NCBI GenBank assembly: GCA_041288095.1 | Contig: JBGGMJ010000092.1 | Span: forward strand, 57 to 64,056 | Direction of reading: 5' to 3' | Length of the DNA: 64,000 nucleotides | From: Myxococcota bacterium | GTDB lineage: Bacteria > Myxococcota > XYA12-FULL-58-9 > JALHOP01 | Shown here: in pieces, positions 2,830 to 25,902 of the stretch | How positions within the stretch are numbered: position 1 is the stretch's first letter | Layout: every line of letters begins with the position of its first letter | The notes under the pieces: generated by a model | The model's input: only the letters and a program-made list of their open reading frames with translations | Told to the model about the DNA's origin: nothing | Databases searched by the model: none | Position numbers and translations under genes: made by a program

Positions 2830-3650
2830 CAAGTGCCGCGCACCAGCAGCGAGATCAGCTCTTCGACGACGCTGAGCGCCCATTCGAGATAGGCCAACAT
2901 GCGCGTGACCAGCGGCTCCATCGCGATGAAGATCATGATGATGCCGGCCATGGCCTTGACCGGCATCGAAAGGAAGTAGGCGTTGAGCTGCGGCGCCACG
3001 CGGTTGAGGATGCCGAACACCAGGTCGGTGATGAAGGTCGCGGCGATGACCGGCGTCGCGATGAGAACGCCGATGAACAGCATCTCGCCGGTGACGCGCA
3101 TGATGAGATCGAAGAACGGCCAGAGCGCGCCGCCGTAGTCCAGGTGTACGTCGAGCGGGATGACTTCGAAGGAGTGAGCGTAGGCCTGCAGGAAGATGCG
3201 GTGGCCCCCCATCGCCATGAAGACGACCAGCATGAGCTGGAAGAAAAGGTCACCGATGGGGGTGGCGCGCTCGCCGGAGAGCGGCACCATGACCTCGGCC
3301 ATCGAGGTGCCACGCACGGTATCGATGACGCGGCCGGCGACCGACAGCGTATCGAAGCTCGAGGCCATGAAGCCGATGGTGAAGCCGATGAAGACTTCCT
3401 TCATCATCAAGAAGAAGAACGGAATGGGCGTGACCGGCACGGCCCCGGTCATCGTCGCCCGCGCCAGCGGCCACACCAAGATGGTGACCATCACACCGAT
3501 GCCCATCTTGATTTCGGGCGGGATGTTCTTGCCGCCGAGCCACGGCGTCTGCGTGACCATCGTCAGGGTGCGCGTCGCCATCAACGCCGCGATGAGCATC
3601 TCCTGCTGATAGTTGAGCGCAATGCCGAGGCGCTGGAGCAGGGCTTCCAT
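2829..3650 (-). CDS. sctT: T3SS export apparatus protein SctT (FliR/YscT family)
   Basis: 273-aa polytopic membrane ORF of FliR/SctT size and character. It lies directly after sctS and sctR in the conserved R-S-T order. Confidence 0.85.
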   Translation of the reverse strand: MEALLQRLGIALNYQQEMLIAALMATRTLTMVTQTPWLGGKNIPPEIKMGIGVMVTILVWPLARATMTGAVPVTPIPFFFLMMKEVFIGFTIGFMASSFDTLSVAGRVIDTVRGTSMAEVMVPLSGERATPIGDLFFQLMLVVFMAMGGHRIFLQAYAHSFEVIPLDVHLDYGGALWPFFDLIMRVTGEMLFIGVLIATPVIAATFITDLVFGILNRVAPQLNAYFLSMPVKAMAGIIMIFIAMEPLVTRMLAYLEWALSVVEELISLLVRGT

Positions 3651-6656: not shown

Positions 6657-8561
6657 CTAGAGGTCCAACTGAACCCCGATCTCGACGACGTTTTTGGAGG
6701 GGATCTTGAAGTGCTGGTCCGCGGTGACGGCGTTCCGCGATAGGAGACCGTAAACCCGCTCGGGAAACGAGCTCATCAGACCAGCCTCCCCGGCGATGAC
6801 CGACTCCCGGCCGAGGAAGTAGGTGAGCTCCTTCGGGTCACCAGGGACCCCGAGCTCCTGGGTCGCGCGTGCCACCATCTCCGGGACGTTCGGCTGCTCC
6901 ATGAACCCGAAACGGGCCACGACGCGGTAGAAGCCGTGCCCCAGGTCCCTGGCGGTCATGCGTTGCTCTGGGTCGACGATCGGAACCTGTTCGCTTTGAA
7001 CGGTGAAGAGAATGACGTGCTCGTGCAGCGTCTGGGAGCGCTCGACGAAGTGAACGAGGACCGGAGGCACCGTGCGCAGACTCGAGGCCATGAACACCGC
7101 GGTGCCGGGCACCCGCGCCAGACACTTGTCGGCGAGCTCGGGAATGACCTCGTCGTAAGAGGCGAGCTTGGCCTCGTAATGGTCACGGATGATGGCGCGG
7201 CCCTTACTCCAGATGAGCATCGCCGCCACGAAGAGCAGCCCGATGAAGAGCGGCACCCAGCCGCCGTGTCGGATCTTCGCGACGTTCGCCAAGAGGAAAG
7301 GGATGTCGAACGAGAGGAAGAGCACGAGGATGGCGATGGCCGCGGTCGCCGGCCAATTCCAGCTGCGGCGCATCACCATGTAGTAGACGATCGAGGTGAG
7401 CGTCATGGTGCCGGTGACCGCGATGCCGTAGGCGCCGGCCAGGGCCTCCGAGGCTTGGAACTCGGTGACCAAGAGGACGCAGGCCACCGCCAAGAGCAGG
7501 TTGATCTGTGGAACGTAGACCTGCCGCTCCATCTCGGCCGCGGTGTGGCGGATCGTCATGCGCGGCAGGTAGCCGAGCTGGATGGCCTGGCGGGTGAGCG
7601 AAAAGGCGCCCGAGATCAGCGCTTGCGAAGCGATGACGGTCGCGAGGCTCGAGAGAGCAACCAGCCCCCAGGTGAGTGGCCCGGTCGGCACCAGCGCGAA
7701 GAACGGGTTGCCGATGCGCGTCGGATCCTTGAGCAGCATCGCGCCCTGTCCGAAATAGCAGAGCACCAACGCCGGCATCACGTAGCTGAGCCACGCGATG
7801 CGAATCGGTTTCGCGCCGAAGTGCCCCATGTCGGCATAGAGCGCCTCGCCGCCGGTCACGCAGAGCACCACCGGACCGAGCACGAAGAACGAGCGCGGAC
7901 CGTGATGTGCGAAAAAGCGGACAGCGTGATGCGGCGACAAGGCAGTGAGCACCTCGAGATCGTCGCTGATGTGCATGGCGCCGAGCACCGCGATGACGCC
8001 GAACCAGACGATCATCACGGGCCCGAACACGCGGCCCACGACGTGGGTGCCGCGGCGCTGCACCAGAAAGAGCGCGATCAGAATGGCGCAGGTGATTGGC
8101 ACCACGAGATGCGCGAGATGCGGCGCGACCACCGTCACGCCCTCGACCGCGGAGAGCACCGAGAACGCGGGCGTGATCGCGCCGTCCCCGTAGAGCAACG
8201 CGGCTCCGACCACGACCAGAAACGCGATCGGCGACATGCGGCGGGCGCGGTTCTCGCGGTAGCGCTGCGGCAGGATGGCGAGCAACGCGAAGATGCCGCC
8301 CTCGCCACGGTTGTCGGCGCGCATGATGAAGATCAGGTACTTGATGGTGACGACGACGGTCAGCGACCAGAAGATGAGCGAGAGGACGCCGAGCACGTCC
8401 TCGCGTGACACCAGACTGCCGCGCAGGCTCTCACGCAGCGTGTAGAGCGGGCTCGTACCGATGTCGCCGAAGACGACGCCGAGGGCGCCCAACGTGAGAC
8501 TTGCGGTACTGGCGCGACGCACGCGGCGACAATAGTCACTAAAAATGGGGACACACACCAT
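6657..8561 (-). CDS. kup: KUP/HAK/KT family potassium uptake protein
   Basis: Hallmark N-terminal motif GVVFGDIGTSPLYT, about 12 TM segments, and a C-terminal cytosolic domain. Length is 634 aa. Confidence 0.92.
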   Translation of the reverse strand: MVCVPIFSDYCRRVRRASTASLTLGALGVVFGDIGTSPLYTLRESLRGSLVSREDVLGVLSLIFWSLTVVVTIKYLIFIMRADNRGEGGIFALLAILPQRYRENRARRMSPIAFLVVVGAALLYGDGAITPAFSVLSAVEGVTVVAPHLAHLVVPITCAILIALFLVQRRGTHVVGRVFGPVMIVWFGVIAVLGAMHISDDLEVLTALSPHHAVRFFAHHGPRSFFVLGPVVLCVTGGEALYADMGHFGAKPIRIAWLSYVMPALVLCYFGQGAMLLKDPTRIGNPFFALVPTGPLTWGLVALSSLATVIASQALISGAFSLTRQAIQLGYLPRMTIRHTAAEMERQVYVPQINLLLAVACVLLVTEFQASEALAGAYGIAVTGTMTLTSIVYYMVMRRSWNWPATAAIAILVLFLSFDIPFLLANVAKIRHGGWVPLFIGLLFVAAMLIWSKGRAIIRDHYEAKLASYDEVIPELADKCLARVPGTAVFMASSLRTVPPVLVHFVERSQTLHEHVILFTVQSEQVPIVDPEQRMTARDLGHGFYRVVARFGFMEQPNVPEMVARATQELGVPGDPKELTYFLGRESVIAGEAGLMSSFPERVYGLLSRNAVTADQHFKIPSKNVVEIGVQLDL

Positions 8562-8611: not shown

Positions 8612-9457
8612 TTAGAACGCCGAGACGCGGAAGCTCTCGAGCGACATGCCGGCCGAGTCGAAGGCCCGCGCCAGATCACCTTCACTCGCCTTGAACAAGC
8701 GGCGGATGTTGGCGTCGCTCGACACAACGGTGGCGCTGATCTTGCGGCCGTTGGCGCTCACCTTGACGCTCGAGCCACCGAGCACATCGTCGCGCAGGTC
8801 GATCTGGAACTCGGTGAGACCCTTCGGGTCGACCTTCACGCCGCAGGCTTTGACGAGCGAAGCGATGAGCGCTTGCGGGATCTTCACGGTGCCGCCGGCG
8901 CTCTGCACCTCGGACGTCGCGGCAACCTGCTGCTGCTGCATCGGCATGCCCATCTGGCCGCCGCCCATCTGTCCGCTATCGCCTTCACTGCCACCGCCGC
9001 CCTGACGCTCCTCGTCTTCACGCGCGACGGCCGCGATATGGTCGTTGTACTTCTCGACCCTCTTGTCGCTGTCCTTCTGCGACTGCACCTGACGCTCGTG
9101 CTCGGCGCCGCGCGTGTCTTGCAGCTCCGTCTGGCGACCCTTCCCCTCCGCGCGGGTCTGCTCCTGCGACGAGGCGCTCTGCTTCAAGAGCTCGGCCTGG
9201 AGGTTACGCGATTGGATGCCGCTCTTGGCGAGGAGGTTCGATTGAGCCTGACCGCGTCGCGCCGAGTTTTGCTGCTGGCGCGCGTTGTTGTTCATGGTCT
9301 GCTGCTGCTTGACGACCTTGATGGCGGATTGCGTCTTGGCGTTGACGACGCGCGAGAAGTCCTCGCTCGACTTCTCGTTTTTGGTGCGCATGTCCTTTTC
9401 GAGGCGCTTCTGGTCCTCGTAACGTTGCGCGGCGCGTTCTTCTTCGACCCGACTCAT
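8612..9457 (-). CDS. Putative needle/hook-length regulator SctP (FliK/YscP-like T3S4 C-terminal domain)
   Basis: The N-terminal half is charged, Q/K/E-rich and low in complexity. The C-terminal part (..FQIDLRDDVLGGSSVKVSANGRKISATVVSSDANIRRLFKASEGDLARAFDSAGMSLESFRV) follows the FliK/Flg_hook pattern (L.L.P..LG.v.v.v....i.v.f.......r..l......L...l...G..l....v). The position after sctO matches fliJ-fliK order. Confidence 0.5.
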   Translation of the reverse strand: MSRVEEERAAQRYEDQKRLEKDMRTKNEKSSEDFSRVVNAKTQSAIKVVKQQQTMNNNARQQQNSARRGQAQSNLLAKSGIQSRNLQAELLKQSASSQEQTRAEGKGRQTELQDTRGAEHERQVQSQKDSDKRVEKYNDHIAAVAREDEERQGGGGSEGDSGQMGGGQMGMPMQQQQVAATSEVQSAGGTVKIPQALIASLVKACGVKVDPKGLTEFQIDLRDDVLGGSSVKVSANGRKISATVVSSDANIRRLFKASEGDLARAFDSAGMSLESFRVSAF

Positions 9458-9466
9458 CCCAACCCC

Positions 9467-9985
9467 TTACGGTGCTTCTCCGGCCAACTGCGACAGGGCA
9501 TCGCCAGTAATACGATACACCGTCCACTCGTCCATGGGTTTGGCCCCCAGGGCTTTGTAGAAACCAATGGCGGGCTCATTCCAGTCCAGGACCGACCATT
9601 CGAAGCGCCCGCAGCCCCTTTCTAGGGCTATTCGGGCCAGATGGGCCAAGAGAGCTCGGCCATAACCTTTGCCGCGGTGCGTCGGACGGACGAACAGGTC
9701 TTCGAGGTAGATGCCGCGCCGGCCGAGCCAGGTCGAGTAGTTGTGGAAGAAGAGGGCGAAGCCGACCGCCTCGGTGTTCTCCCAGGCGATGAGCACCTCG
9801 GCTTGCGGCGACGGTCCAAAGAGCGTCTGCGTGAGCGACTGCTCGGTCGCTTTCACTTGATCGGCCGCGCGCTCGTAGGTCGCGAGCTCCTTGATGAGCC
9901 CCAGGATGATCCCGACTTCACCCACGCGCGCGGGGATGATTCGGAAGTCACCGGGAAGCGGCCGGCGTCCCGAGTCGCTGCTCAC
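9467..9985 (-). CDS. GNAT family N-acetyltransferase (SSAT/SpeG-like)
   Basis: GNAT acetyl-CoA motif region ..IYLEDLFVRPTHRGKGYGRALLAHLARIA.., followed by FEWSVLDWNEPAIGFYKALGA. The GTG start overlaps the sctO stop (GTGA). Confidence 0.85.
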   Translation of the reverse strand: MSSDSGRRPLPGDFRIIPARVGEVGIILGLIKELATYERAADQVKATEQSLTQTLFGPSPQAEVLIAWENTEAVGFALFFHNYSTWLGRRGIYLEDLFVRPTHRGKGYGRALLAHLARIALERGCGRFEWSVLDWNEPAIGFYKALGAKPMDEWTVYRITGDALSQLAGEAP

Positions 9986-10476
9986 TTATCGCGTCCCAAG
10001 TAGATGGTCTGGGCGATCTCGTCCATGACGGCCTCCTCGCGCGCTTCCTGCTCCTTCTTGACCTCGGCGGCCCACTTCTCCTTGTGCTTCTCGAGCGCCT
10101 TGAGGTCCTGAGTGGCGAGCACGACCTGCTTGCGGGCGTCGTCGACCTCGTCCTTCTTCTGGGCGACGACCTGCTTCTGCCCCTCGATGGCGTTCTCTTG
10201 GGCCTCTTCCTGTTCTTTCAGGCGCTCGATGTAGACGTTGGCGCCGACGACGTCTTGGGCGGCCATCATGCCCTTCATCGACTTCTCGGCGTACTCGCGC
10301 ATCTTGGCCTCGCGCTTGGCGATCATGCGTTCGAGCTCGTCTTCCATTTCCTTCTGGCGCTTCTGCTCGGCGGCGAGCTCGGCCAGCTTCACACCCAGGA
10401 AACGCTCGGCCTCTTCCTTGCGCCGCTCGCGAAGGGTGACAAGGGCCTGAAGGCGATAGTCGGGTTTTACAGCCAT
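9982..10476 (-). CDS. Putative T3SS stalk protein SctO (FliJ/YscO-like coiled coil)
   Basis: 164-aa ORF that is entirely heptad-like and charged, of FliJ/YscO size. The C-terminal ..LKALEKHKEKWAAEVKKEQEAREEAVMDEIA is FliJ-like. It lies downstream of sctN in the flagellar fliI-fliJ-fliK order, after inserted cargo. Confidence 0.55.
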   Translation of the reverse strand: MAVKPDYRLQALVTLRERRKEEAERFLGVKLAELAAEQKRQKEMEDELERMIAKREAKMREYAEKSMKGMMAAQDVVGANVYIERLKEQEEAQENAIEGQKQVVAQKKDEVDDARKQVVLATQDLKALEKHKEKWAAEVKKEQEAREEAVMDEIAQTIYLGRDK

Positions 10477-10513
10477 GCCGAGGCACCAGTCTTACATAGG
10501 CGGCGGGCGCTGG

Positions 10514-11284
10514 CTATCGCTTACGAAGGGCCTGTAGCGCCTCTTCGAATGCCTCGCGACTGACCTCACGCGTGCCGTCACGCGGAGCCGTAATCCGAGC
10601 GAGATAGCTCATGTCGCGGACGAAAGAGGCGGTCTTCGCATCGTAGGCGAGCACGTCGAGCCCGCCATCGGCGGTGACGACCGCCTGAACCGGTCGATCC
10701 CCGACGAGAAAAAAGCCCGCCAAGCTTGCTGCTCCACTCGCGGACGAGAGGCGACGCGGTGAGGCTATGAGCTCGCGGCCGAGGAGCTCAACCGACCGTT
10801 TGTGCGTAGCCGTCAGACTCACGCTTCGGCGCATGAAGCCGGAGATCTCGCGTTCGTACTTGCGCAACAGGCGCTGCGGATCGTCGACCCCCGATGCCCC
10901 GAGCGCGCGGACGTTGCTGATGCGCTCCGCGACTTTCACCGCGAACGCGAGCTGACCCAAGCCATCGACGTCGCCCGTCCCCGATCGGTAGCGCGCGAGC
11001 TCATCGACGGCGGTCGCGATCGCGGTTCCGAAGCGCTGCTCGACGTCGTTGCGGCCGCAGGTTCTCTCATCGAGGACGTCGTGAAGGTAGGCCACGATCT
11101 GATGCTCCGGCCCGGTGAATCCGAGCTCGCGCATCGTTTTGGCGACATCGTCGAGGTGTCGCGCGTGAGGCCACGTGCCGTAGGTTCGCGCGCCGTGCGC
11201 CTGCAGCGCGAAGAGGCGCGCCGCGTCGGGTGTCGCGGCGGAGCCCGTGCGCGCCGCCTCTGTCCTCTTGATGTCGATCGGCAT
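10514..11284 (-). CDS. SpoT/Mesh1-type HD-domain hydrolase (candidate alarmone hydrolase / immunity protein)
   Basis: N-terminal half: ..FALQAHGARTYGTWPHARHLDDVAKTM..IVAYLHDVLDERTCGRNDVEQRFGTAIATAVDEL.. This matches the H..HD..D pattern and spacing of (p)ppGpp-hydrolase HD domains (..H.gQ.R..G.PY..H...VA ... LHDv.EDT......i...FG..va.lV..lt). The ATG overlaps the stop of the upstream 779-aa ORF (TGATG). Confidence 0.7.
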   Translation of the reverse strand: MPIDIKRTEAARTGSAATPDAARLFALQAHGARTYGTWPHARHLDDVAKTMRELGFTGPEHQIVAYLHDVLDERTCGRNDVEQRFGTAIATAVDELARYRSGTGDVDGLGQLAFAVKVAERISNVRALGASGVDDPQRLLRKYEREISGFMRRSVSLTATHKRSVELLGRELIASPRRLSSASGAASLAGFFLVGDRPVQAVVTADGGLDVLAYDAKTASFVRDMSYLARITAPRDGTREVSREAFEEALQALRKR

Positions 11285-13623
11285 CAGGGGGCCCTCACGT
11301 TGTATTGGCCTAGCGTGTCCGCCATGCGACGACGGTAGAGCTCGTTGAGCTGGACGAAGGCGGGATTCAGACTGCCGTCCGCGTTGCGCATCGGTGGGTA
11401 CTTGCTGGGGTTCGCGAGCGCGTCAGCATAGAGAGCCTGCGTCTGTTGGCGCAACGCCGCGATGGCATCGGCCTCCGCGGCCCTAAGCGGTCGGTTCGTT
11501 CGCACGGCCTCCCGCTCGATGTGCGAAATGGCTTCGTAGTACGAATGCTCGATCTTGCCGGCATTGAAGATGCCGCGCTGGTGCAGTTGCAGCTCGAAGA
11601 TTTGACCGCCCTCGCCACGGATCTGCAGCTTCACGTCCCGGTACCCAGACAGCTGCGGTCTGCTGAAGCGGTCGATCTGCTCGACGATGCGATCCCCGTA
11701 GCGTGCCCGGATCGTTGCGAGCGCCGCGCGCACCTGGGCTTCGGTTTCGTAGACGAGGCTGCCGCGATTCAGATCCCTGAGCGCATTCGCGTCGAGGTTC
11801 GTCTCGCCGACTGTCTTCTTCCAGGCGCGTGCCTCTCCCTTCACGCCTGGGGAGATGTGCGTGCCATTGGTGAGACGCGCGACGTCCGCGAGCTCTGCTT
11901 GCACACCGGGGTCCAAGGCTCTCGCCTCGCGCATGCGGGCGCCCAGCTCGGCGCGCGCCCGGCCAATGGGTCGGTTGTAGGTCCAACCCTCCGGCCTCGC
12001 TGGAGCGACACCCATGCGCGCGGTGTTTCCCAACCAGAAGCCCATCTGAGCGATCATCGCTAGCCGCTCTTGCGGACCGAGCTGGTTCCAGTGCGTCGCG
12101 AGACGCACACCGCTATCGCCGACCACCGCCGCATCGGCGCCAATCGCGGCGCGCTGCAGGTGCGGCGCGACCCGCGATGCCGTCGACAACACGCCGACCG
12201 TGGCCTGAGCGGTCGAGCGCACGGTCACTCCGAGCGCCGCGCCGCCGAGCATGCTCGCCCCGATGGTCAAGTAATGGAGGCGCGCCTCCGAGTTGGCGAA
12301 CGGATCGATGCTTTCGCCGTGACGAGCACGGTCGTAGAGCTGGCTCCCGGAGCGCCCCGCGAAGTAGAGCGAGGCACCACCGGCGACCACCGGTGCCGCA
12401 AGGCCGCCGGAGCCTACGAGCATGACGCCTGCCGCGGCGGTTCCTAGCACCGCGACCGCCACATCCGCGTGGTCCTGCACGTGGTCCCACGTGCTGTTCT
12501 TGATCTCCGTTGGCGCGTAGGTCGAGTCAGCCATGCGCCCTGTTTCGGGGAAGAGCAGCGTGCCACGCGGCAGCTTGTTGTTGTCGCGATAGTCCGCGAT
12601 GTCGTTGTAGACGCGGCCCTGGTGATCGACGAACCGGCTCGCTCCGGCGCTTGTCTCGACGCGAAACAGCGGCAGCCGCTGCAACCCGAGCGTTGGATTG
12701 CTATAGAATACCGGCAGCGTCGACACCCTCGCCGGCTCGCCACCGACCTCGCGGATGGCTCTCGCGACCGGCTCGATGGCGCGTTCGGCCGGGCCCCCGA
12801 AGAGAGGGTCCCTGCTCATGTCGAACTGCCTCGCCCCCTCGAGATCTCTCGGCCCCTGCGTCGGAGGGATCCCCATGGCAACGCCGATCTCGTTGCTCAA
12901 GCCGACGCCGGTCAGGGGCTGCGTCGTATCACCGCGCAGCACACGGTAAGGCGCGAGATCCGCGGCAACCGCGTCACGGAACGTCGCGGGGTCCGACGTC
13001 AAGAAGCGGTGCGTTCTCGCCAAGCCGTCCGCCGGCCGAATGCTGAGGTTCGCTACAGCGGACACTGGCGCGCCGGCACCGGTCAGCGCGGCACCGTCGA
13101 CTGTCGCGACGACCTGATCGGCGCGTAGTGGCGGGTCGGCCGGCAGCTCACGCAGCAAGCCACCGAGGGTCGGGTCATTCGCGGGCCCCGCCAATCGGCC
13201 AAGGAGCTGTGCCTGCAACTCGCGAGGCATGCGCGCGATGGTGCTGCTCATGACGGCGGCGTTACCGCGGGACATGACCAAGCGCAGCGCTTCCTGTGGG
13301 TCGCTGGGGAGATTCACCCCGGGGTCGACGTGCTGGCGAAAGGCGGCGGCCAATCTGGGATCGGATGCGAATGCTGCCTGCAGCGCCCCTCCGTCGCGCA
13401 TCTGCCGCTGCAACCCGTGCCAGTCGGCGGTGAAGTGTCGAACCCGATCTCCCTCCACCATCCGCACCACGAGCGGGTTGACCTGGGTTTGCCCAGGCGC
13501 GAACCCCGACCTCATTGTCCCGTCGCGCATGACCATCAGATCGAACGTGGCACCCGGGTGTCTCCTCGCGAGCTCCCGCACCAAGGCGCCGTCGAGCGCG
13601 CTGCCGTCCCCGACGCGTGGCAT
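11284..13623 (-). CDS. Large protein with C-terminal RelA/SpoT-like nucleotide pyrophosphokinase (toxSAS-like) domain; candidate T3SS effector/toxin
   Basis: Residues ~590-700 carry GVKGEARAWKK, LRDLNRGSLVY, SGYRDVKLQI, IFELQLHQ and IEHSYYE, in the order and spacing of RelA/SpoT synthetase motifs. Residues ~386-470 form a Gly/Ala-rich hydrophobic block. There is no cleavable signal peptide. Confidence 0.6.
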   Translation of the reverse strand: MPRVGDGSALDGALVRELARRHPGATFDLMVMRDGTMRSGFAPGQTQVNPLVVRMVEGDRVRHFTADWHGLQRQMRDGGALQAAFASDPRLAAAFRQHVDPGVNLPSDPQEALRLVMSRGNAAVMSSTIARMPRELQAQLLGRLAGPANDPTLGGLLRELPADPPLRADQVVATVDGAALTGAGAPVSAVANLSIRPADGLARTHRFLTSDPATFRDAVAADLAPYRVLRGDTTQPLTGVGLSNEIGVAMGIPPTQGPRDLEGARQFDMSRDPLFGGPAERAIEPVARAIREVGGEPARVSTLPVFYSNPTLGLQRLPLFRVETSAGASRFVDHQGRVYNDIADYRDNNKLPRGTLLFPETGRMADSTYAPTEIKNSTWDHVQDHADVAVAVLGTAAAGVMLVGSGGLAAPVVAGGASLYFAGRSGSQLYDRARHGESIDPFANSEARLHYLTIGASMLGGAALGVTVRSTAQATVGVLSTASRVAPHLQRAAIGADAAVVGDSGVRLATHWNQLGPQERLAMIAQMGFWLGNTARMGVAPARPEGWTYNRPIGRARAELGARMREARALDPGVQAELADVARLTNGTHISPGVKGEARAWKKTVGETNLDANALRDLNRGSLVYETEAQVRAALATIRARYGDRIVEQIDRFSRPQLSGYRDVKLQIRGEGGQIFELQLHQRGIFNAGKIEHSYYEAISHIEREAVRTNRPLRAAEADAIAALRQQTQALYADALANPSKYPPMRNADGSLNPAFVQLNELYRRRMADTLGQYNVRAP

Positions 13624-13644: not shown

Positions 13645-14055
13645 CTAGTCCAGCGCTGGTCGGTGATCCGCGACGTAACGATCGAGCACCCGCGGATCAC
13701 CGGGGACGCCGATGCGTCGCAGCTCGCTCTGCCAACCAGCGCTCAGCGCCGCGGGGACGTTTGCCGGCAACTCCGTGCGAACCACCTCGGCGGGGAGCCG
13801 TGCCCAAACCGCGGCGCTCCGGGCCACTTCCACGTGGACCCGTTCGAGACGGCTTCGAACGTCGCCTGGCTCCGGTGGCGTGACGCCCGTCGAGCGGTCC
13901 TGAACAGGTACGACCGGCCTGCGATCGACCTCACCAGACCTCGGTACCGCGCTCGGAGCTTTCGCCGGGGAGTCCGCTTGCGCGGTCACTACCCGACCAT
14001 CGACCTGCACCGCGGGCAACGCTCCCGCTGATGCTGTCAGGGCTCCGGTCCCCAA
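13645..14055 (-). CDS. Hypothetical protein upstream of the toxin candidate (possible chaperone/adaptor; unsupported)
   Basis: ORF only, with its stop 21 nt before the 779-aa ORF start. No family signature was recognised. High GC makes spurious ORFs common. Confidence 0.3.
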   Translation of the reverse strand: MGTGALTASAGALPAVQVDGRVVTAQADSPAKAPSAVPRSGEVDRRPVVPVQDRSTGVTPPEPGDVRSRLERVHVEVARSAAVWARLPAEVVRTELPANVPAALSAGWQSELRRIGVPGDPRVLDRYVADHRPALD

Positions 14056-14372
14056 TCGTACTCCGTTCGGCCTCGATGCCGAAGCGCGCTGGGGCGCGCC
14101 CTAGCAGCTTATCCTGAGTGTACTTCTCCCGCGGCATCGCGCGCATCTGTTGAATTGACGGCCTCGCCCGACAGACGGTCATCGATCGGCGATACGGTGA
14201 GCCGCGGGGATCGGCCAGGGGATGGTCGGCAAACGATTAATTTCTCCGCAAATACGGTATGTTATACGGTTTTACGGGTGCGCTCGCCTGCTGACACGGC
14301 TGCGCTCCCGAAGACGCAACGCGCGTGGGTGAACAACCGAACTTCATGGCTCACTCAAGAGCGGAGAGAGCC

Positions 14373-14714
14373 ATGAACGCAGTCCACCACGTATCCCAAC
14401 CGGTCAGCGGCATCGCGGCCAGCTTGCCTGACATCGGTGCCGCGCTGCGGGCCACGGGTGTCCTCGAGCTGTCAGGCAAGAACGCGAAGTTCGCGAGCGC
14501 CAAGTGGCTGTCGGCGCCGGTGAGCGTGATCAAGTCGCTGAGCCCAGTCGACCTGGTGATTTGCAGGGCAAAAGGCTGCAAGACCCTCGGCGATCTCATG
14601 GCTCTGCGCGTCGCCTGGGTGCCGTATTTCAGCGAGTCGCCCGGTCTCAAGCTCTTGTGCGCCCAGAACGCCCTGCGCCCGGTGCTCATGACCTACGGCG
14701 CGCAGAAGGCTTAG
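14373..14714 (+). CDS. Hypothetical small protein (114 aa)
   Basis: ATG 14373 is preceded by GGAGAGAG. The gene is transcribed divergently from a lower-GC intergenic region, and its 3' end overlaps the convergent 673-aa gene by 4 nt. No family was recognised. Confidence 0.4.
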   Translation: MNAVHHVSQPVSGIAASLPDIGAALRATGVLELSGKNAKFASAKWLSAPVSVIKSLSPVDLVICRAKGCKTLGDLMALRVAWVPYFSESPGLKLLCAQNALRPVLMTYGAQKA

Positions 14715-16732
14715 CCGCGGATAATTCGTTGGTAGCGCGCCTCGAGCCTGGCGACCACGCGATCGAAAGCGCCTGCGCCGAACCTCTCGTCATAGACGGC
14801 CTGCAGCCGCGGGCGGAGCTCGCTGGGCGTGCGCTCCATCGCCCCTACGAGCTCCTGCGGGTCGGCGGCGCGCAGGGAGATGGCGTGCAACATGTCGATG
14901 ATGTCGTAAGGACCTTCGCGAGCTTCGTGCAGCAAACGCGCTCGCCAAGGGAGGTCGCGGTCGAGCGCTCCCTCCTGTGCGCTCGTGCGCATGGTAAATG
15001 CACGAGAGATTGCGGTCTCGTGCGAGATGCCGTGCAGCGAGAGGAAGAGATCAGCGAAGGTCTGGCGTTGGTCTGGCGGCACGCGGCGCAAGATCGCCGA
15101 GACCGCGGGGCCGCGCTCGTCGCCGTTACTTAGCAAGGTGCGCTGAAGGTCCTCGGCGATCGTGCCGAGATCGCGATCGGCGCTGGTGGCCATCGCGGCG
15201 TCGAGGCGTGGATCGCTCGCGCGCAACCGCGCGATGACCTCGTTGCTGCTCGCGTCGCGCAGCTGGTCGTGGCTCACTCGCCGCCCCTCGCCATAGTAGC
15301 GCTGAACGACGCGCAGCATCTCATCGGCGTCGAGCTCGCCCGCGAGGTAGAGCCGCGCTGTCGTGGCGAGGTACCCCTCGAGCCTGCCCTCGGTGAGCGC
15401 GCTGATGCGGACGGCCCACTCCTCTGGGTTGCCGCCTTCGCCCTGCGCGGCCCGGTGTGTGCGGCCATTGATCTCGGCGAGCATGTCGGGCCCGCCCAAC
15501 GCTTGAGCGTACAGATCTCGAATCTCAGCGAAGCGTTCCCCATCGACCGCGTTCTCGAGGGCCGCGAAGAGGTACGGCAGGTCGGAGCGCGAGCGCGGTG
15601 TCGAGGCGCGCCAGACCGCGAAGGCGAGGTCGGCGTCGCGTGGCTTACCTTGTGGCTGGCTTGCGTCTTCGCGCTCGACGAGGCGGATGTGCGCTTCGAA
15701 GGCGGTCAGCTCGCGCGGCGGCTGGATGCGACTGAGCTCGCTCGTCAGGCGAGGCGGGAACTCCTCGGCATACCGTACGCGATAGGAGGCGGCGAGCGCC
15801 TGTTGCTCGCGACGGTTGAGCTGGTTGAACTGGGCAAGTAGCCGGTCTCGGCGCTCGACACCTCCGAGGTTCTTCACCGCCATGAAGATCTGATCGCCGA
15901 GCGAGAAGCGGCTGTCGGGATTGCTGCGCAAGGCGCGGAAGAGCCGGCGCTCGGCGTCCGCGGAGCCGCCGGCCAGTCTGCCAAAGCGTCCCTGTAGCAT
16001 GTCCTCGAAAGCCCGCTCCGGCGTCATGGCGGCATGGCGCTGTTGCCCGGGCTGCGCCCGCTCTGGTGGCCCTCGCAAGATGCCTTCGCCGATCAGACGC
16101 TCGAGTCGCGCCTGATCGCCTTTCGACAGGCCATAGAACACCGATCGCAGGACATCGGGTCCGCCGCCGCGGCCGAACACGAACTCGGTAACCCGGTTCG
16201 CGAGAGCGTTCAGATCCGGGTTCTGTCGGAAGGCGGCAGGCGTCGACGACGGTTCGACCCGTCGCGGATCAGGACGCGGTTCGGTCTGCGCCGTCGGCCT
16301 CGCGAGCTCGAGCTGCGCCGGGACCGAACGATCGGCGTGCATGACCTCGCCGAGGGCGCGCCCCTGATTGGCGCTGAGCGCGGTGGCTTCGACGATCAGC
16401 GCCCGCACCTCGGCGTGTTGGGTCTCCGCCAAGATCCTCTGGACCTGCGCCGGCGTCGCCCCGCGCAAGAGCTCGCGGAGGTCGTCGAGCTTCTGCTTTC
16501 GATGATCGGCGCCACGCCGGGTAGCGGCACTCAACGCCTTGTCGACGTCGGTTCCGGAGACACCCTCGAGGCCGCCGCCGGGGACGAGGCGGCGGTTGGG
16601 TACCTTCTTCGGTTCCTCTTTGGTCTCGACCGTCTCGGTGGCCTGCGTTGGCTGCGCGGGCCCGCTGGTCTGCCCCGCCGGCCCGTTGATCACGGCAGGG
16701 ATTGGTCCTTGGCCAACTCGATCCAGCGACAT
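14711..16732 (-). CDS. Hypothetical 673-aa protein with annexin-repeat-like units; candidate T3SS substrate
   Basis: The N-terminus is disordered and P/Q/T-rich, with no signal peptide. Repeated helical units resemble annexin repeats (GVSGTDVDKAL..; GGVERRDRLLAQFNQLNRREQQALAASYRVRYAEEFPPRLTSELS; ERGPAVSAILRRVPPDQRQTFADLFLSLHG..; ..TPSELRPRLQAVYDERFG..). It lies immediately downstream of sctN. Confidence 0.55.
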   Translation of the reverse strand: MSLDRVGQGPIPAVINGPAGQTSGPAQPTQATETVETKEEPKKVPNRRLVPGGGLEGVSGTDVDKALSAATRRGADHRKQKLDDLRELLRGATPAQVQRILAETQHAEVRALIVEATALSANQGRALGEVMHADRSVPAQLELARPTAQTEPRPDPRRVEPSSTPAAFRQNPDLNALANRVTEFVFGRGGGPDVLRSVFYGLSKGDQARLERLIGEGILRGPPERAQPGQQRHAAMTPERAFEDMLQGRFGRLAGGSADAERRLFRALRSNPDSRFSLGDQIFMAVKNLGGVERRDRLLAQFNQLNRREQQALAASYRVRYAEEFPPRLTSELSRIQPPRELTAFEAHIRLVEREDASQPQGKPRDADLAFAVWRASTPRSRSDLPYLFAALENAVDGERFAEIRDLYAQALGGPDMLAEINGRTHRAAQGEGGNPEEWAVRISALTEGRLEGYLATTARLYLAGELDADEMLRVVQRYYGEGRRVSHDQLRDASSNEVIARLRASDPRLDAAMATSADRDLGTIAEDLQRTLLSNGDERGPAVSAILRRVPPDQRQTFADLFLSLHGISHETAISRAFTMRTSAQEGALDRDLPWRARLLHEAREGPYDIIDMLHAISLRAADPQELVGAMERTPSELRPRLQAVYDERFGAGAFDRVVARLEARYQRIIRG

Positions 16733-24414: not shown

Positions 24415-25902
24415 TCATCCGCCGGTGCCCTTTTCGCCCTCGTCTCGCTTCCGATCGGTCGCGTCCTCATCGGCGGCTTTCTCGATGGCCTTCGCCGACC
24501 AGCCCCCGCCAAGGGCCTGCACCAGGGCGACGGTGCCGGTGAGCTGGTTCTCGAGCACGGTGAGGGCGCTCTGCTCGTTGGTGAGCGCGGTTTGCTGCGC
24601 CGTGATCACCGCCGTGTAGTCGACGGTGCCGGCCTTGTAGCGGTTGGTCTGGATGCGCTCAGCCTCACGCGCCGCGTCGACGGCGCGTTGCTGGAACTGC
24701 GATTGCTCGACGAAGAGGTGCAAGCCGACGAGTTGGTCTTCGACCTGCTGCATCGCGGTGAGCGCGGTCTGGCGATAAGCAGCTACCGTTTGCTCGTATT
24801 GCTCGCGCGCGACCGTGACCTGCCCGGAGCGCCGGCCCCAGTCCCAGACCGTGCCCGCGAGGGTCGGTCCAATCGACCAGAAGAGACTCGCCGTATCGAA
24901 GAGTGACCCGAGCACGGATGACTGGTAACCCAACGACCCCGTGAGCGAGATGGTGGGAAAGTACGCCGCTATAGCGACACCGATCTGAGCATTGGCGGCG
25001 GCCATGCGGCGCTCGGCGGCGGCGACGTCCGGACGGCGCTCGAGCAACACCGACGGCAAGGTGATGGGGACTTCGGGGAGACTGCGCGGCATGTCCGCTA
25101 TGGCGATCGAGATCTCGGACGGCGGCTTGCCCACCAGCACCGCGATGGCGTGCTCGAGACGCGCGCGCTGCACTTTGATGCCGATGGATTGGGCGTGCGC
25201 GCTCTCGAGCTGCGTTTGCGCGAGCGACACGTCCGCTTTGGTGGCGATACCCGCGTCGTACTGATTCTTGGCGATAGTGTACGCGCGTCCATAAGCTTCG
25301 GCTGCGACCTCGAAGAGCCGCCGCTGCTCGTCGCGTGAGCGCAGCTGAAAGTAGGCGGTTGCGAGCTGCGACTGCGCCGAGAGCTTCGCGGAGGCAATGT
25401 CGGCGGCCGACGCTTGGGCTTCCGCCGCGTTGCTCTCGATGGTCCGCCGGATGCGGCCCCAGACGTCGAGCTCCCAGGTGATCCCGGTCGAGGCGTTGTA
25501 GATGGTGCGCGGACCGCCACCCGTGGTGCCGCCACCGACCGTGGCGCCGCCGACGTTGGTGCCTACCGCGCCGCTCGTTCGCCGTACGCCGCCGTTCACA
25601 TTGAGGGCCGGCAAGATGCCGGCTTTCGCGCTCTGCAACACTCCTCGCGCTTCACGATAGGCCGCTTCGGCTTGCTTCAAGTTCTGGTTCGACACCTCGA
25701 CCTGTCGCATGAGCTCGTCGAGCGTCGCATCGGCGAACACCGCCCACCAATCGCCGCGGTCGGCGTCGTCCGCGGGCTCGACGACCTTCCAACCTTCGAT
25801 CTCCTTGTAGCTCGGTGGTTCCGCCGCCTTCGGCTTGTCGTAATCGGGGCCGACCTTGCAGGCCGCGATAGCGAACAGTGAGATGAGCGCGATGCGTTTC
25901 AT
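24415..25902 (-). CDS. RND efflux outer membrane factor lipoprotein (NodT family)
   Basis: Lipobox SLFAIAAC followed by [10 protein letters not shown], and two OEP-like repeats. The ATG overlaps (ATGA) the stop of the upstream permease reading frame. Confidence 0.9.

What the first reader, a model, noticed from the sequence alone, without database searches (positions are those of the whole stretch)
10514..13623. RelA/SpoT-synthetase-fold toxin candidate coupled to a SpoT/Mesh1-type HD hydrolase, embedded inside the T3SS operon
The 779-aa ORF has no family signature I can recognise over its first ~580 aa. Residues ~590-700 (nt ~11524-11871), however, line up motif for motif with the RelA/SpoT nucleotide pyrophosphokinase fold. 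GVKGEARAWKK corresponds to RxKxxxSxxxK, and LRDLNRGSLVY to DxxGxRi. SGYRDVKLQI corresponds to GYxSxHxxv, IFELQLHQ to vEiQiRT, and IEHSYYE to eHxxYK. Its stop overlaps (TGATG) the start of a 256-aa ORF. The N-terminal half of that ORF matches the (p)ppGpp-hydrolase HD domain (H...HD...D with LHDVLDERT and FGTAIATAVDEL). A synthetase-fold toxin paired with an alarmone hydrolase is the logic of toxSAS/SAH toxin-antitoxin pairs. A secreted (p)ppApp synthetase (Tas1 of Pseudomonas aeruginosa) is a known T6SS antibacterial effector. I do not know of this pairing being described as cargo of a type III secretion locus. The pair interrupts the otherwise conserved sctN(fliI)-sctO(fliJ) junction. In a predatory myxobacterium, a T3SS-associated nucleotide-depleting effector with a self-protecting hydrolase would be coherent; that part is inference.
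Basis: partly seen in the sequence, partly recalled or inferred. Interest (0 to 1): 0.9.

Follow-up and report, generated by a model that had tools for sequence, protein, structure and literature searches.

The report
T3SS-linked alarmone-synthetase toxin with hydrolase immunity
Inside a type III secretion gene cluster of an uncultured myxobacterium sits a toxin gene whose tail resembles the bacteria-killing enzyme Tas1, followed by a likely antidote gene, and the toxin's front half is a carrier module that sits beside type III secretion genes in many other bacteria.

Summary
A 779-aa ORF (11284-13623, minus) overlaps by TGATG a 256-aa ORF (10514-11284, minus), between sctN and sctO.

Residues ~571-740 are a RelA/SpoT-fold pyrophosphokinase. 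A profile of its family hits Tas1 (E 7.6e-17) and canonical synthetases. The AF2 model (pLDDT 92.7) matches only such folds, and all family-invariant residues are kept.

The 256-aa protein is a small alarmone hydrolase. It passes the Pfam HD_4 cut-off and its model best matches P. aeruginosa SAH. Two catalytic motifs carry conservative changes (ED to DE, Asp to Glu), and it has an extra, unassigned C-terminal domain.

That module sits in or beside T3SS clusters in 13 of 16 informative loci (Bradyrhizobium, Bosea, Paracoccus, Ensifer, Methylobacterium, Burkholderia). There it carries other C-terminal toxins (nucleases) followed by YezG-like or SUKH immunity genes.

The toxin domain also occurs on PAAR, VgrG and eCIS proteins. 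The pair is therefore best read as a polymorphic toxin-immunity module tied to a T3SS.

Secretion, toxicity, product and target remain untested.

The parts
11284..13623 (-). Toxin gene, 779 aa: variable N-terminus, DUF4781 carrier module, Tas1-like RelA/SpoT toxin domain, C-terminal tail
   Evidence: ORF; Pfam DUF4781 E 2.7e-27 and weak RelA_SpoT; GC3 0.81
11989..13395 (-). DUF4781 carrier module (aa ~77-545), homologous to T3SS-cluster proteins of Bradyrhizobium, Bosea, Methylobacterium, Paracoccus and another Myxococcota MAG
   Evidence: blastp E 1e-46 to 1e-52 over aa 77-545; alignment A4; tblastn against plasmids
12367..12474 (-). Gly/Ala-rich hydrophobic stretch (aa 384-419), long enough for a two-helix hairpin, conserved across DUF4781 proteins. 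It is the only strongly hydrophobic segment of the protein. A weaker one lies at aa ~451-470.
   Evidence: Kyte-Doolittle 19-residue mean up to 1.92; conserved block in A4
11404..11913 (-). Toxin domain (aa ~571-740): RelA/SpoT-fold pyrophosphokinase, Tas1-like. K595, R599, K603, D617, GYRD 660-663, E677, H693 and Y696 are all kept.
   Evidence: 1020 relatives; alignment A1; Tas1 E 7.6e-17; 27 of 38 members hit Pfam RelA_SpoT; AF2 pLDDT 92.7; Foldseek top 50 all RSH synthetases
11287..11403 (-). C-terminal tail (aa 741-779) beyond the family domain, modelled as a helix; function unknown
   Evidence: Unaligned overhang in A1; H185-204 in the model. In 67% of relatives the domain ends within 15 residues of the C-terminus.
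10514..11284 (-). Putative immunity gene, 256 aa, start overlapping the toxin stop (TGATG)
   Evidence: Same arrangement in a 78%-identical relative with a 4-nt overlap and on three near-identical contigs.
10745..11227 (-). Small-alarmone-hydrolase (SpoT/Mesh1-type HD) domain, aa ~20-180. H43, H68-D69 and N124 are kept. It has D72-E73 instead of ED, and E120 instead of the metal-ligand Asp.
   Evidence: HD_4 32.1 bits against cut-off 27.2; profile hits to SAH, MESH1 and Rel hydrolases at E 4e-21 to 7e-13; Foldseek best match P. aeruginosa SAH 6yvc, TM 0.75; motif comparison
10517..10732 (-). Extra beta-rich C-terminal domain of the HD protein (aa ~185-256), unassigned. In another protein (P0005) the same module sits N-terminal to an HD domain.
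   Evidence: Alignments A3 and A6; no Pfam or PDB match; secondary structure
9982..10476 (-). sctO (YscO-like / FliJ), 37 nt downstream of the HD gene on the same strand
   Evidence: YscO-like 99.6 bits; FliJ TIGR02473
16805..18148 (-). sctN, the T3SS ATPase
   Evidence: ATP-synt_ab plus T3SS_ATPase_C; 47% identity to Bosea SctN
14056..14324 (.). Intergenic stretch (GC 0.62) between the plus-strand ORF and the region upstream of the toxin gene; likely holds divergent promoters. No sigma-70-like site was found.
13645..13647 (-). In-frame TAG 21 nt upstream of the toxin ATG. A sister assembly reads Glu here and annotates a start 54 codons further upstream.

Best explanation
The two genes form a polymorphic-toxin / immunity pair tied to the type III secretion system. 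The 779-aa protein has a carrier part (DUF4781 module, aa ~77-545, with a conserved hydrophobic stretch) and a C-terminal warhead (aa ~571-740). The warhead is a Tas1-like RelA/SpoT pyrophosphokinase. I infer that it transfers pyrophosphate from ATP to an acceptor. The acceptor is most likely adenine nucleotides, giving (p)ppApp and depleting ATP as Tas1 does. Less likely it is the tRNA 3' end or guanine nucleotides. The translationally coupled 256-aa protein protects the producer. Its SpoT/Mesh1-type HD domain would remove the 3'-pyrophosphate from the product, and its extra C-terminal domain may bind the toxin. I infer that the T3SS encoded around the pair exports the toxin, and that the hydrophobic DUF4781 module helps it reach or cross the target-cell membrane. 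Shown here: domain identities, conserved catalytic residues, gene coupling, the modular swapping of warheads and immunity genes on the DUF4781 carrier, and the recurrent T3SS neighbourhood. Inferred: enzymatic product, toxicity, mode of neutralisation, T3SS-dependent export, and whether the target is a bacterium or a eukaryote.
For: Toxin domain. phmmer against 1.84 billion representatives gave 1020 hits at E<=1e-3, and the domain ends within 15 residues of the C-terminus in 67% of the best 150. The family profile hits Tas1 (6ox6) at E 7.6e-17, then YwaC/RelP 4.5e-9, RelA 5.8e-7 and RelSeq 3.3e-6. 27 of 38 members hit Pfam RelA_SpoT, best E 1.1e-14. The AF2 model has pLDDT 92.7, and the top 50 Foldseek PDB hits are all RelA/SpoT synthetases including Tas1, an exported Streptomyces SAS and CapRel. 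The invariant residues K595, K603, D617, D663, E677 and Y696 are kept.

Polymorphic-toxin behaviour. Relatives of the domain sit on PAAR, VgrG, eCIS_core, LysM and DUF4781 proteins and next to a WXG100 gene.

Immunity. The HD gene passes the HD_4 cut-off. Its best fold match is P. aeruginosa SAH and its profile hits SAH, MESH1 and Rel hydrolases. It overlaps the toxin stop, and the pairing is conserved in a 78%-identical relative.

Carrier and T3SS link. DUF4781 genes lie in or within about 15 kb of T3SS clusters in Bosea, Paracoccus sanguinis, Ensifer and B. cenocepacia. They occupy a fixed SctV-TPR-DUF4781-small ORF position in five Bradyrhizobium genomes, Methylobacterium jeotgali and four metagenome contigs, one of which (L026) has hit coordinates identical to the Methylobacterium locus and may duplicate it. 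There they carry Endonuclea_NS_2 warheads followed by YezG-like or SUKH immunity genes. A paper reports a HopBF1+DUF4781 protein in B. cenocepacia T3SS clusters (PMC12580581).

In the window the pair is followed within 37 nt by sctO-GNAT-sctP on the same strand. The protein has no N-terminal hydrophobic segment of the kind a Sec signal would need.
Against: The window sequence alone does not reach the Pfam RelA_SpoT cut-off (17-20 bits against 27). The assignment rests on the family profile and the fold. The HD protein has D72-E73 instead of the catalytic ED pair and Glu120 instead of the metal-binding Asp, whereas a 46%-identical relative not preceded by a same-strand gene keeps the canonical residues. 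It may therefore hydrolyse poorly and act by binding. T3SS linkage of DUF4781 is not universal. There are no T3SS genes within 15-30 kb in Paracoccus contaminans, within 10 kb in metagenome locus L027, or around a weak partial match in B. pyrrocinia. No TPR chaperone gene lies next to the toxin in the window. sctU, sctV and a secretin were not found in the window, so completeness of this T3SS is unknown. Short stand-alone members of the toxin family have no adjacent same-strand immunity gene, so not every member need be toxic. The true start codon is uncertain (in-frame TAG). Nothing was tested experimentally.
Confidence: 0.6

Rival explanations
1. This is an ordinary intracellular toxSAS-SAH toxin-antitoxin (or phage-defence) module that happens to have landed in the T3SS cluster. 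The toxin is never exported and arrests the producer's own growth when triggered.
For: Toxin and antidote genes overlap, as in TA operons. SAH-type hydrolases are known antitoxins of toxSAS modules (Jimmerson et al. 2020, PMC7229694, listed; the SAH-antitoxin statement is from my own knowledge of that paper). Some short family members stand alone.
Against: The toxin domain is only the last ~170 of 779 residues. The rest is a conserved carrier that carries other warheads (nucleases) with other immunity genes and sits in T3SS clusters. There is no PADLOC hit for either protein. Relatives of the domain are fused to PAAR, VgrG and eCIS export modules.
Confidence: 0.1
2. It is a real exported toxin but travels by another route (T6SS, outer-membrane exchange, vesicles or lysis). 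The T3SS neighbourhood reflects co-regulation or shared mobile ancestry only.
For: The same toxin domain is clearly cargo of T6SS and eCIS elsewhere. Three DUF4781 loci lack nearby T3SS genes. The window lacks sctU, sctV and sctC. The M. xanthus T3SS* is described as needle-less with unknown substrates (PMC12428579).
Against: The protein has no PAAR, VgrG, Rhs, LXG or eCIS domain. The DUF4781 gene holds a fixed position directly after sctV and a TPR gene in ten loci. That is the position translocators and their TPR chaperones hold in Ysc-type clusters (comparison from established knowledge). The window pair is packed head-to-tail with sctO and sctP.
Confidence: 0.15
3. The DUF4781 protein is primarily a structural T3SS translocator or tip component that inserts into target membranes. 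The C-terminal enzyme is an accessory acting on eukaryotic hosts (amoebae, fungi, plants), and the HD gene only protects the producer before export. On this reading it is not an antibacterial weapon.
For: The hydrophobic stretch is conserved. A TPR gene lies immediately upstream in rhizobial loci. Most carriers are plant-associated bacteria whose T3SS target eukaryotes. HopBF1, a eukaryote-directed kinase, is fused to DUF4781 in Burkholderia.
Against: There is no sequence match to known translocator families. YezG-like and SUKH immunity genes are typical of interbacterial toxin systems. The warheads are swapped, whereas structural proteins are usually conserved.
Confidence: 0.25
4. It is a non-toxic signalling pair: a local alarmone synthetase and hydrolase that tune expression or activity of the T3SS.
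For: RelA/SpoT synthetases and HD hydrolases are classically regulatory. Stand-alone short family members exist without immunity genes.
Against: Tas1, a toxin, is the top sequence-profile hit. Relatives are fused to PAAR, VgrG and eCIS. The same carrier bears nucleases with immunity genes elsewhere. The 570-aa hydrophobic carrier has no precedent in regulatory SAS.
Confidence: 0.05

Closest known systems
Tas1 / Tis1 of Pseudomonas aeruginosa (T6SS (p)ppApp-synthetase effector and its immunity protein; PDB 6ox6)
   Same: Tas1 is the top hit of the toxin family's sequence profile (E 7.6e-17), and the fold matches with TM 0.53-0.57. Both are a C-terminal warhead on an exported protein with the protective gene directly downstream.
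   Different: The carrier is DUF4781 in a T3SS cluster, not a T6SS-associated N-terminus. The motif is GYRD rather than Tas1's GYSG, and ELQLH rather than EIQVN. The protective gene is an HD hydrolase with an extra domain, not a Tis1-type binder. The product is unknown.
toxSAS toxin-antitoxin modules with SAH-type antitoxins (FaRel, PhRel, CapRel families; Jimmerson et al. 2020)
   Same: A RelA/SpoT-fold toxin is coupled to an alarmone-hydrolase-fold gene by overlapping reading frames. The logic is to degrade the product.
   Different: toxSAS are small intracellular single-domain toxins. Here the domain is the tail of a 779-aa protein with an export-associated carrier. There is no PADLOC match.
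P. aeruginosa small alarmone hydrolase (PaSAH, PDB 6yvc) and Mesh1-type SAHs
   Same: These are the best structural matches of the 256-aa protein (TM 0.75, rmsd 2.7 A). It has the HD_4 signature, and H43, H68-D69 and N124 are kept. From my own knowledge, PaSAH degrades (p)ppApp and protects against Tas1 (Steinchen et al. 2021).
   Different: It has ED to DE and Asp to Glu in two catalytic motifs, an added ~70-aa beta-rich C-terminal domain, and genetic coupling to a toxin gene.
Classical polymorphic toxin systems (Rhs/PAAR/VgrG of T6SS, LXG of T7SS, CdiA of T5SS, eCIS cargo)
   Same: The architecture is a conserved N-terminal delivery module plus a swappable C-terminal toxin plus a cognate immunity gene downstream (YezG-like, SUKH or HD).
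   Different: The delivery module (DUF4781) is linked to T3SS clusters. My literature searches found no description of T3SS as a route for polymorphic toxins with immunity genes.
T3SS hydrophobic translocators with TPR class II chaperones (YopB/LcrH, IpaB/IpgC)
   Same: There is a hydrophobic hairpin-like segment. In rhizobial loci the gene follows sctV and a TPR gene, as yopB follows lcrH (established knowledge).
   Different: There is no sequence similarity to the SseC, IpaB or YopB families. There is no TPR gene next to the window's copy. The protein carries an enzymatic warhead and an immunity gene.

Membership tests
RelA/SpoT (RSH) synthetase superfamily, Tas1-like toxin clade | Match to Pfam RelA_SpoT (PF04607) at or above the curated cut-off | tested here: not met
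   The window protein scores 17.0 bits (whole protein) and 20.1 bits (domain alone) against a cut-off of 27. However, 27 of 38 aligned relatives match at E<=0.01, best E 1.1e-14, and some exceed the cut-off (33.6, 33.0 and 51.2 bits).
RelA/SpoT (RSH) synthetase superfamily, Tas1-like toxin clade | Significant profile-level homology to experimentally characterised RSH synthetases | tested here: met
   The A1 profile hits Tas1 at 7.6e-17, YwaC at 4.5e-9, E. coli RelA at 5.8e-7 and RelSeq at 3.3e-6. The 22 best hits are all RSH enzymes.
RelA/SpoT (RSH) synthetase superfamily, Tas1-like toxin clade | RSH synthetase fold | tested here: met
   AF2 pLDDT 92.7, pTM 0.85. The Foldseek PDB top 50 are all RSH synthetases, probability 1.00, TM up to 0.57.
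RelA/SpoT (RSH) synthetase superfamily, Tas1-like toxin clade | Catalytic and substrate-binding motifs: basic R/K cluster, Mg-binding Asp, GY motif, catalytic Glu of ExQ, H..Y | tested here: met
   K595, R599, K603, D617, G660-Y661-R662-D663, E677-x-Q679, H693 and Y696 are all present and sit on invariant or >=90% conserved columns.
RelA/SpoT (RSH) synthetase superfamily, Tas1-like toxin clade | Pyrophosphokinase activity and toxicity | not testable with these tools
   Needs expression and nucleotide or tRNA analysis.
Small alarmone hydrolase (SpoT/Mesh1-type HD domain) | Pfam HD_4 at or above the cut-off | tested here: met
   32.1 bits against 27.2, aa 24-100.
Small alarmone hydrolase (SpoT/Mesh1-type HD domain) | SAH fold | tested here: met
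   AF2 pLDDT 80.9. Best Foldseek hits are PaSAH 6yvc (TM 0.75), MESH1 and RelH. The profile hits SAH, MESH1 and Rel at E 4e-21 to 7e-13.
Small alarmone hydrolase (SpoT/Mesh1-type HD domain) | Complete catalytic set H...HD..ED...D...N | tested here: inconclusive
   H43, H68, D69 and N124 are kept. The ED pair reads D72-E73 and the last metal ligand is E120, both here and in the 78% relative. The 46% relative P0004 and P0005 keep ED and D. The changes are conservative and their effect is unknown.
Small alarmone hydrolase (SpoT/Mesh1-type HD domain) | Hydrolysis of 3'-pyrophosphate from alarmones | not testable with these tools
   Needs an enzyme assay.
Polymorphic toxin system | The same toxin domain is found at the C-terminus of proteins with unrelated N-terminal delivery modules | tested here: met
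   PAAR, VgrG, eCIS_core, LysM and DUF4781, plus a WXG100-adjacent case. In 67% of hits the domain ends within 15 aa of the C-terminus.
Polymorphic toxin system | The same N-terminal module carries alternative C-terminal toxin domains | tested here: met
   DUF4781 carries a Tas1-like domain (window, P0014, P0031, P0059). It carries Endonuclea_NS_2 in Bosea, Paracoccus, Bradyrhizobium and Methylobacterium. It carries unassigned tails in L005, L009 and L028. HopBF1 is reported in Burkholderia.
Polymorphic toxin system | Cognate immunity gene immediately downstream | tested here: met
   The HD gene overlaps the toxin stop. Downstream of the nuclease versions are YezG-like genes (34.7 and 35.8 bits against cut-off 21.7) and SUKH genes.
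toxSAS toxin-antitoxin module | Small, essentially single-domain SAS toxin acting inside the producer | tested here: not met
   The toxin domain is aa 571-740 of a 779-aa protein with a 470-aa conserved carrier. There are no PADLOC hits.
T3SS substrate (effector or translocator) | Encoded within a T3SS gene cluster | tested here: met
   The window order is sctJ, a FliG-like gene, sctL and sctN upstream; then sctO, sctP-like, sctQ, sctR and sctT downstream on the same strand.
T3SS substrate (effector or translocator) | The carrier module is recurrently T3SS-linked in independent lineages | tested here: met
   13 of 16 informative loci have T3SS genes within about 15 kb (L026 may duplicate L010), and 10 are in a fixed SctV-TPR-DUF4781 order.
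T3SS substrate (effector or translocator) | Dedicated chaperone gene adjacent | tested here: inconclusive
   A TPR gene lies directly upstream in rhizobial loci. None is adjacent in the window; the only weak TPR match is 23 kb away.
T3SS substrate (effector or translocator) | T3SS-dependent secretion | not testable with these tools
   Needs secretion assays in wild type against sctN or sctV mutants.

The most novel reading that the evidence does not exclude
DUF4781 proteins are a previously unrecognised class of T3SS-delivered polymorphic toxins. A membrane-inserting, translocator-like carrier takes interchangeable warheads (a Tas1-like alarmone synthetase, nucleases, a HopBF1-type kinase) into target cells, and each warhead is paired with its own immunity gene. 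In Myxococcota such a protein would be the first candidate cargo for the enigmatic myxobacterial T3SS. In rhizobia and Burkholderia it would mean that T3SSs are also used for contact-dependent killing with self-protection, a role so far assigned to T4SS-T7SS and CDI systems.
Probability: 0.3. Interest if true: 0.9.

Novelty: new variant of a known kind. Interest (0 to 1): 0.75.

Why it matters
Known routes for Tas1-like RelA/SpoT toxins are the T6SS and TA modules; fusions seen here also point to eCIS. Polymorphic toxins with immunity genes are known for T5SS, T6SS, T7SS and eCIS. I found no description of a T3SS-linked class.

A 2025 review states that the needle-less myxobacterial T3SS* is needed for prey lysis and is only hypothesised to supply toxic effectors (PMC12428579). 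A toxin-immunity pair at the head of an sctO-sctP gene string gives a concrete candidate.

The carrier module also sits in T3SS clusters of culturable Bradyrhizobium, Bosea, Paracoccus, Ensifer, Methylobacterium and Burkholderia. The idea can therefore be tested directly even though the window's organism is uncultured.

It also gives a first functional context to a Pfam domain of unknown function (DUF4781).

Tried and rejected
- **Whole-protein homologue search.** The word-indexed search with the 779-aa protein returned only a partial copy of itself. The exhaustive representative search with the C-terminal domain alone was needed.
- **Collection scans.** Scans of genome and metagenome contigs with the whole protein found no relatives. 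Alignments A1 and A4 were too diverse for pattern scans. A three-sequence alignment (A5) worked.
- **MixRel/MixSpo.** I first suspected these RSH subfamilies were myxobacterial. The two passages found do not tie them to myxobacteria; one lists them for Xanthomonas.
- **Upstream extension of the toxin gene.** I tested whether the 136-aa ORF upstream of the in-frame TAG (13645-14055) is a lost N-terminal extension. It has no homology to any DUF4781 protein, and its GC3 is lower than its GC1, which is atypical for coding sequence here. This remains unresolved.
- **HD C-terminal domain.** I tested whether it is a known immunity or Tis1-like domain. It has no Pfam or PDB sequence match.
- **Known phage-defence family.** There are no PADLOC hits.
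- **Recent horizontal insertion.** GC and GC3 are like the neighbours.
- **Promoter, terminator and Rfam scans** of the region found nothing.
- **Similarity of the hydrophobic segment to haemolysin BL L1** (E 0.24) was dismissed as compositional.

Full report
**1. What is in the sequence**

The junction reads TGATG, so stop and start share one base. GC3 of both ORFs (0.81 and 0.79) lies in the range of the neighbouring secretion genes (0.79-0.92). There is therefore no compositional sign of recent import.

The window comes from an uncultured Myxococcota MAG (source names). Near-identical fragments (99.5-99.9%) carrying toxin-HD-sctO occur in three other assemblies.

**2. Gene neighbourhood**

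All of the following are on the minus strand unless stated (Pfam):
- sctJ (22667-23545)
- a FliG-like gene (21615-22637)
- an unknown 634-aa ORF
- sctL (18178-19032)
- sctN (16805-18148)
- an unknown 673-aa ORF (14711-16732)
- a plus-strand ORF (14325-14714) with coding-like GC3 (0.82)
- a ~270-nt intergenic stretch
- the toxin gene and the HD gene
- sctO (9982-10476, 37 nt after the HD stop)
- a GNAT acetyltransferase gene that overlaps sctO by 4 nt
- an sctP/FliK-like gene
- a Kup potassium transporter gene
- sctQ, sctR and sctT
- an NHL-repeat protein gene

So the pair does lie between sctN and sctO, but it is not a simple interruption. It heads a second co-directional gene string, and the cluster holds several other non-secretion genes. 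tblastn with SctU, SctV and secretin queries found none of them in the window.

**3. The C-terminal domain is a Tas1-like RelA/SpoT enzyme**

Alone, the window sequence only grazes Pfam RelA_SpoT (17-20 bits; cut-off 27) and PDB RelA (E 0.6).

An exhaustive phmmer search with aa 570-779 found 1020 relatives at E<=1e-3 and 151 at E<=1e-10. A 38-sequence alignment (A1) gives six invariant columns: K595, K603, D617, D663, E677 and Y696. Further columns are at least 90% conserved: R599, R652, F653, G660, Y661, R662 and H693.

The A1 profile hits Tas1 (6ox6) at E 7.6e-17. It then hits YwaC/RelP, E. coli RelA, RelSeq, M. tuberculosis Rel and RelQ. 27 of 38 members match Pfam RelA_SpoT.

An AlphaFold2 model built on 29 sequences has pLDDT 92.7. 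Its 50 best Foldseek matches in the PDB are all RelA/SpoT synthetases: RelQ, Tas1, RelP, an exported Streptomyces SAS and CapRel.

The fold and superfamily are therefore secure. The acceptor substrate (adenine nucleotides, guanine nucleotides or tRNA) cannot be read from sequence. Tas1 is the top hit of the sequence profile, which is why I favour (p)ppApp synthesis.

**4. It behaves as a polymorphic-toxin warhead**

In 67% of the best 150 hits the domain ends within 15 residues of the C-terminus, in proteins of 128 to 4329 aa. The N-terminal parts include PAAR, a full VgrG, eCIS_core, LysM and DUF4781. One member follows a WXG100 gene and precedes an array of 125-aa paralogues.

Some short stand-alone members (~270 aa) have no adjacent same-strand partner. 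Not every member need be a toxin.

**5. The 256-aa protein is a small alarmone hydrolase with peculiarities**

It passes the Pfam HD_4 cut-off (32.1 bits against 27.2). A four-sequence profile hits a Leptospira SAH (4e-21), human MESH1 (5e-18), Thermus Rel hydrolase (3e-16), RelH and P. aeruginosa SAH (7e-13). The AF2 model (pLDDT 80.9) best matches P. aeruginosa SAH 6yvc (TM 0.75, rmsd 2.7 Å), then Mesh1 and RelH.

H43, H68-D69 and N124 are in place. Two features depart from the canonical set:
- The catalytic Glu-Asp pair reads Asp72-Glu73.
- The last metal-ligand Asp is Glu120.

The 78%-identical relative P0003 shows the same two changes. That relative also follows a long gene with a 4-nt overlap. 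The 46% relative P0004, which has no same-strand upstream gene, and P0005 both keep the canonical residues. Hydrolase activity is therefore plausible but not assured.

Residues ~185-256 form an extra beta-rich domain with no Pfam or PDB match. In P0005 the same module is N-terminal to an HD domain. It could be a toxin-binding part; that is inference.

**6.

Pfam DUF4781 matches aa 325-523 (E 2.7e-27). blastp homology to relatives spans aa ~77-545. The module has a soluble conserved core (LPLFRV...RFVD..GR.Y...NNKLPPG). This is followed by a Gly/Ala-rich hydrophobic stretch (aa 384-419), which is the only strongly hydrophobic segment of the protein.

tblastn against plasmids and two pattern scans returned 20 further loci. 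Their contexts are as follows.
- **Bosea vestrisii plasmid:** sctN-sctL-nolU-sctJ-nolB, then sctV, a TPR gene, a 1104-aa DUF4781 gene and a 131-aa ORF.
- **Paracoccus sanguinis plasmid:** yscN ... sctJ ... a 979-aa DUF4781 gene, then a 185-aa ORF and a SUKH gene.
- **Ensifer adhaerens pD:** the gene lies ~5 kb from sctU, a secretin gene and sctV.
- **B. cenocepacia:** SctR, SctU and SctT lie within 15 kb. A published survey notes a HopBF1+DUF4781 protein in its T3SS clusters (PMC12580581).
- **Five Bradyrhizobium genomes, Methylobacterium jeotgali and four metagenome contigs:** all show the same order SctJ/NolB | ... SctV-TPR-DUF4781-small ORF. One metagenome contig (L026) has hit coordinates identical to the Methylobacterium locus L010 and may duplicate it.
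- **Exceptions:** Paracoccus contaminans, metagenome locus L027 and a weak partial match inside a giant B. pyrrocinia protein.
- **Uninformative:** three short or truncated contigs (L007, L009, L028).

That makes 13 of 16 informative loci T3SS-linked.

The C-terminal domains differ between carriers. Endonuclea_NS_2 occurs in the Alphaproteobacteria (up to 95 bits). Unassigned tails occur in Ensifer, the second Myxococcota MAG and L028. The Tas1-like domain occurs here and in three representative clusters (P0014, P0031, P0059).

The downstream small ORFs include YezG-like immunity proteins (34.7 and 35.8 bits; cut-off 21.7) and SUKH/SMI1-KNR4 proteins. This is the signature of a polymorphic toxin family: a constant delivery module, swapped warheads and matching immunity genes.

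**7. Most likely mechanism**

I propose that the T3SS exports the 779-aa protein. Its DUF4781 module would help it associate with or cross the target membrane. The warhead would then pyrophosphorylate an acceptor using ATP, most likely producing (p)ppApp and draining ATP. The co-translated HD protein would protect the producer by degrading the product, by binding the toxin, or both.

Shown here are the domain identities, residue conservation, gene coupling, modularity and genomic linkage. Everything about activity, export and target is inferred.

In Ysc-type clusters the order sctV ... TPR chaperone - hydrophobic translocator is classical (established knowledge). The rhizobial SctV-TPR-DUF4781 order therefore suggests a translocator-like role. 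There is no sequence similarity to known translocators, and no TPR gene adjoins the window's copy.

**8. Rivals**

- An intracellular toxSAS-SAH TA module is unlikely, given the long conserved carrier and the absence of PADLOC hits.
- Export by another route cannot be excluded. The warhead travels by T6SS and eCIS elsewhere, and three DUF4781 loci lack nearby T3SS genes.
- The target may be eukaryotic rather than bacterial.
- A purely regulatory alarmone pair fits poorly with the Tas1 affinity and the nuclease-bearing siblings.

**9. Novelty**

Tas1-type toxins, SAH-type protection and polymorphic toxin systems are all known. The link to a T3SS and the role of DUF4781 as a carrier are not described in the literature I could search. 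A 2025 review states that the myxobacterial needle-less T3SS* is only hypothesised to supply toxic effectors.

I classify this as a new variant of a known kind, with high interest, because culturable carriers make it directly testable.

Noticed in passing
window 14711-16732 (minus): The 673-aa ORF between sctN and the toxin gene has no Pfam family. Its only PDB sequence hits (23, E 0.03-0.15) are all annexin V, aligning aa 608-671 to an annexin repeat, and the sequence looks internally repetitive. It may be a bacterial annexin-like, membrane-binding protein and another candidate T3SS substrate.
   Followed up: partly
window 14325-14714 (plus): This ORF of 129 aa (about 113 aa from the first ATG) lies on the opposite strand. 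It converges on the 673-aa ORF with a 4-nt overlap and diverges from the toxin gene. Its GC1/GC2/GC3 of 0.61/0.48/0.82 is typical of real coding sequence here. It has no Pfam or PADLOC match. It splits the secretion cluster into two transcription units.
   Followed up: partly
window 13645-13647 (minus): An in-frame TAG lies 21 nt upstream of the toxin ATG. A partial protein from a sister assembly (P0001) reads Glu at this codon and starts 54 codons upstream at a GTG. The upstream stretch has no homology to other DUF4781 proteins and an atypical GC3 (0.72, below its GC1 of 0.80). The true start is unresolved.
   Followed up: partly
window 544-2883, 6657-8561 and 9467-9985 (all minus): Non-secretion genes are interleaved with T3SS core genes on the same strand. 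A GNAT acetyltransferase gene overlaps sctO by 4 nt and ends 9 nt before sctP. A Kup potassium transporter gene lies between sctP and sctQ. An NHL-repeat protein gene overlaps the end of sctT. This is unusual packing for a T3SS cluster.
   Followed up: no
window, whole: tblastn with SctU, SctV and secretin queries from rhizobial clusters found no match anywhere in the 64-kb window, although SctN and SctJ were found. The export gate and secretin genes must lie elsewhere or be absent. A TolC-like OEP gene (24415-25902) follows the cluster. The large ORFs beyond it were not examined.
   Followed up: partly
window 10517-10732 (minus); also P0005: The ~70-aa beta-rich C-terminal domain of the HD protein (motif DGGLDVLAYD..TG.F.RD.SYL.R) is a mobile module. 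In P0005 it is N-terminal to an HD domain. It has no Pfam or PDB match.
   Followed up: partly
L008, L010-L014, L024-L026, L029 (about 8800-12700 in each): In Bradyrhizobium, Methylobacterium and related metagenome contigs the order SctV - TPR protein - DUF4781/nuclease protein - YezG-like immunity gene is conserved. This means a toxin-immunity pair sits in the position where Ysc-type clusters encode a chaperone and translocators.
   Followed up: partly
L021, L022, L023 (3001-3860 in each): Short (~270-aa) stand-alone members of the Tas1-like family, for example in a Microcoleaceae cyanobacterium, have no adjacent same-strand partner gene. The family may include non-toxic or differently controlled enzymes.
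   Followed up: no
P0059 (816 aa), residues ~580-816: One DUF4781 plus Tas1-like protein carries a further ~240-aa C-terminal region after the toxin domain, with no Pfam match. It may be a second warhead or a fused protective domain.
   Followed up: no
L015 1-60 versus window 12377-12386: A near-identical contig from another assembly lacks 10 nt inside a short direct repeat (CCGGTGGT...CCGGTGGT) in the hydrophobic-stretch coding region, close to its contig end. This is probably an assembly artefact. If real, it would frameshift the toxin gene.
   Followed up: no
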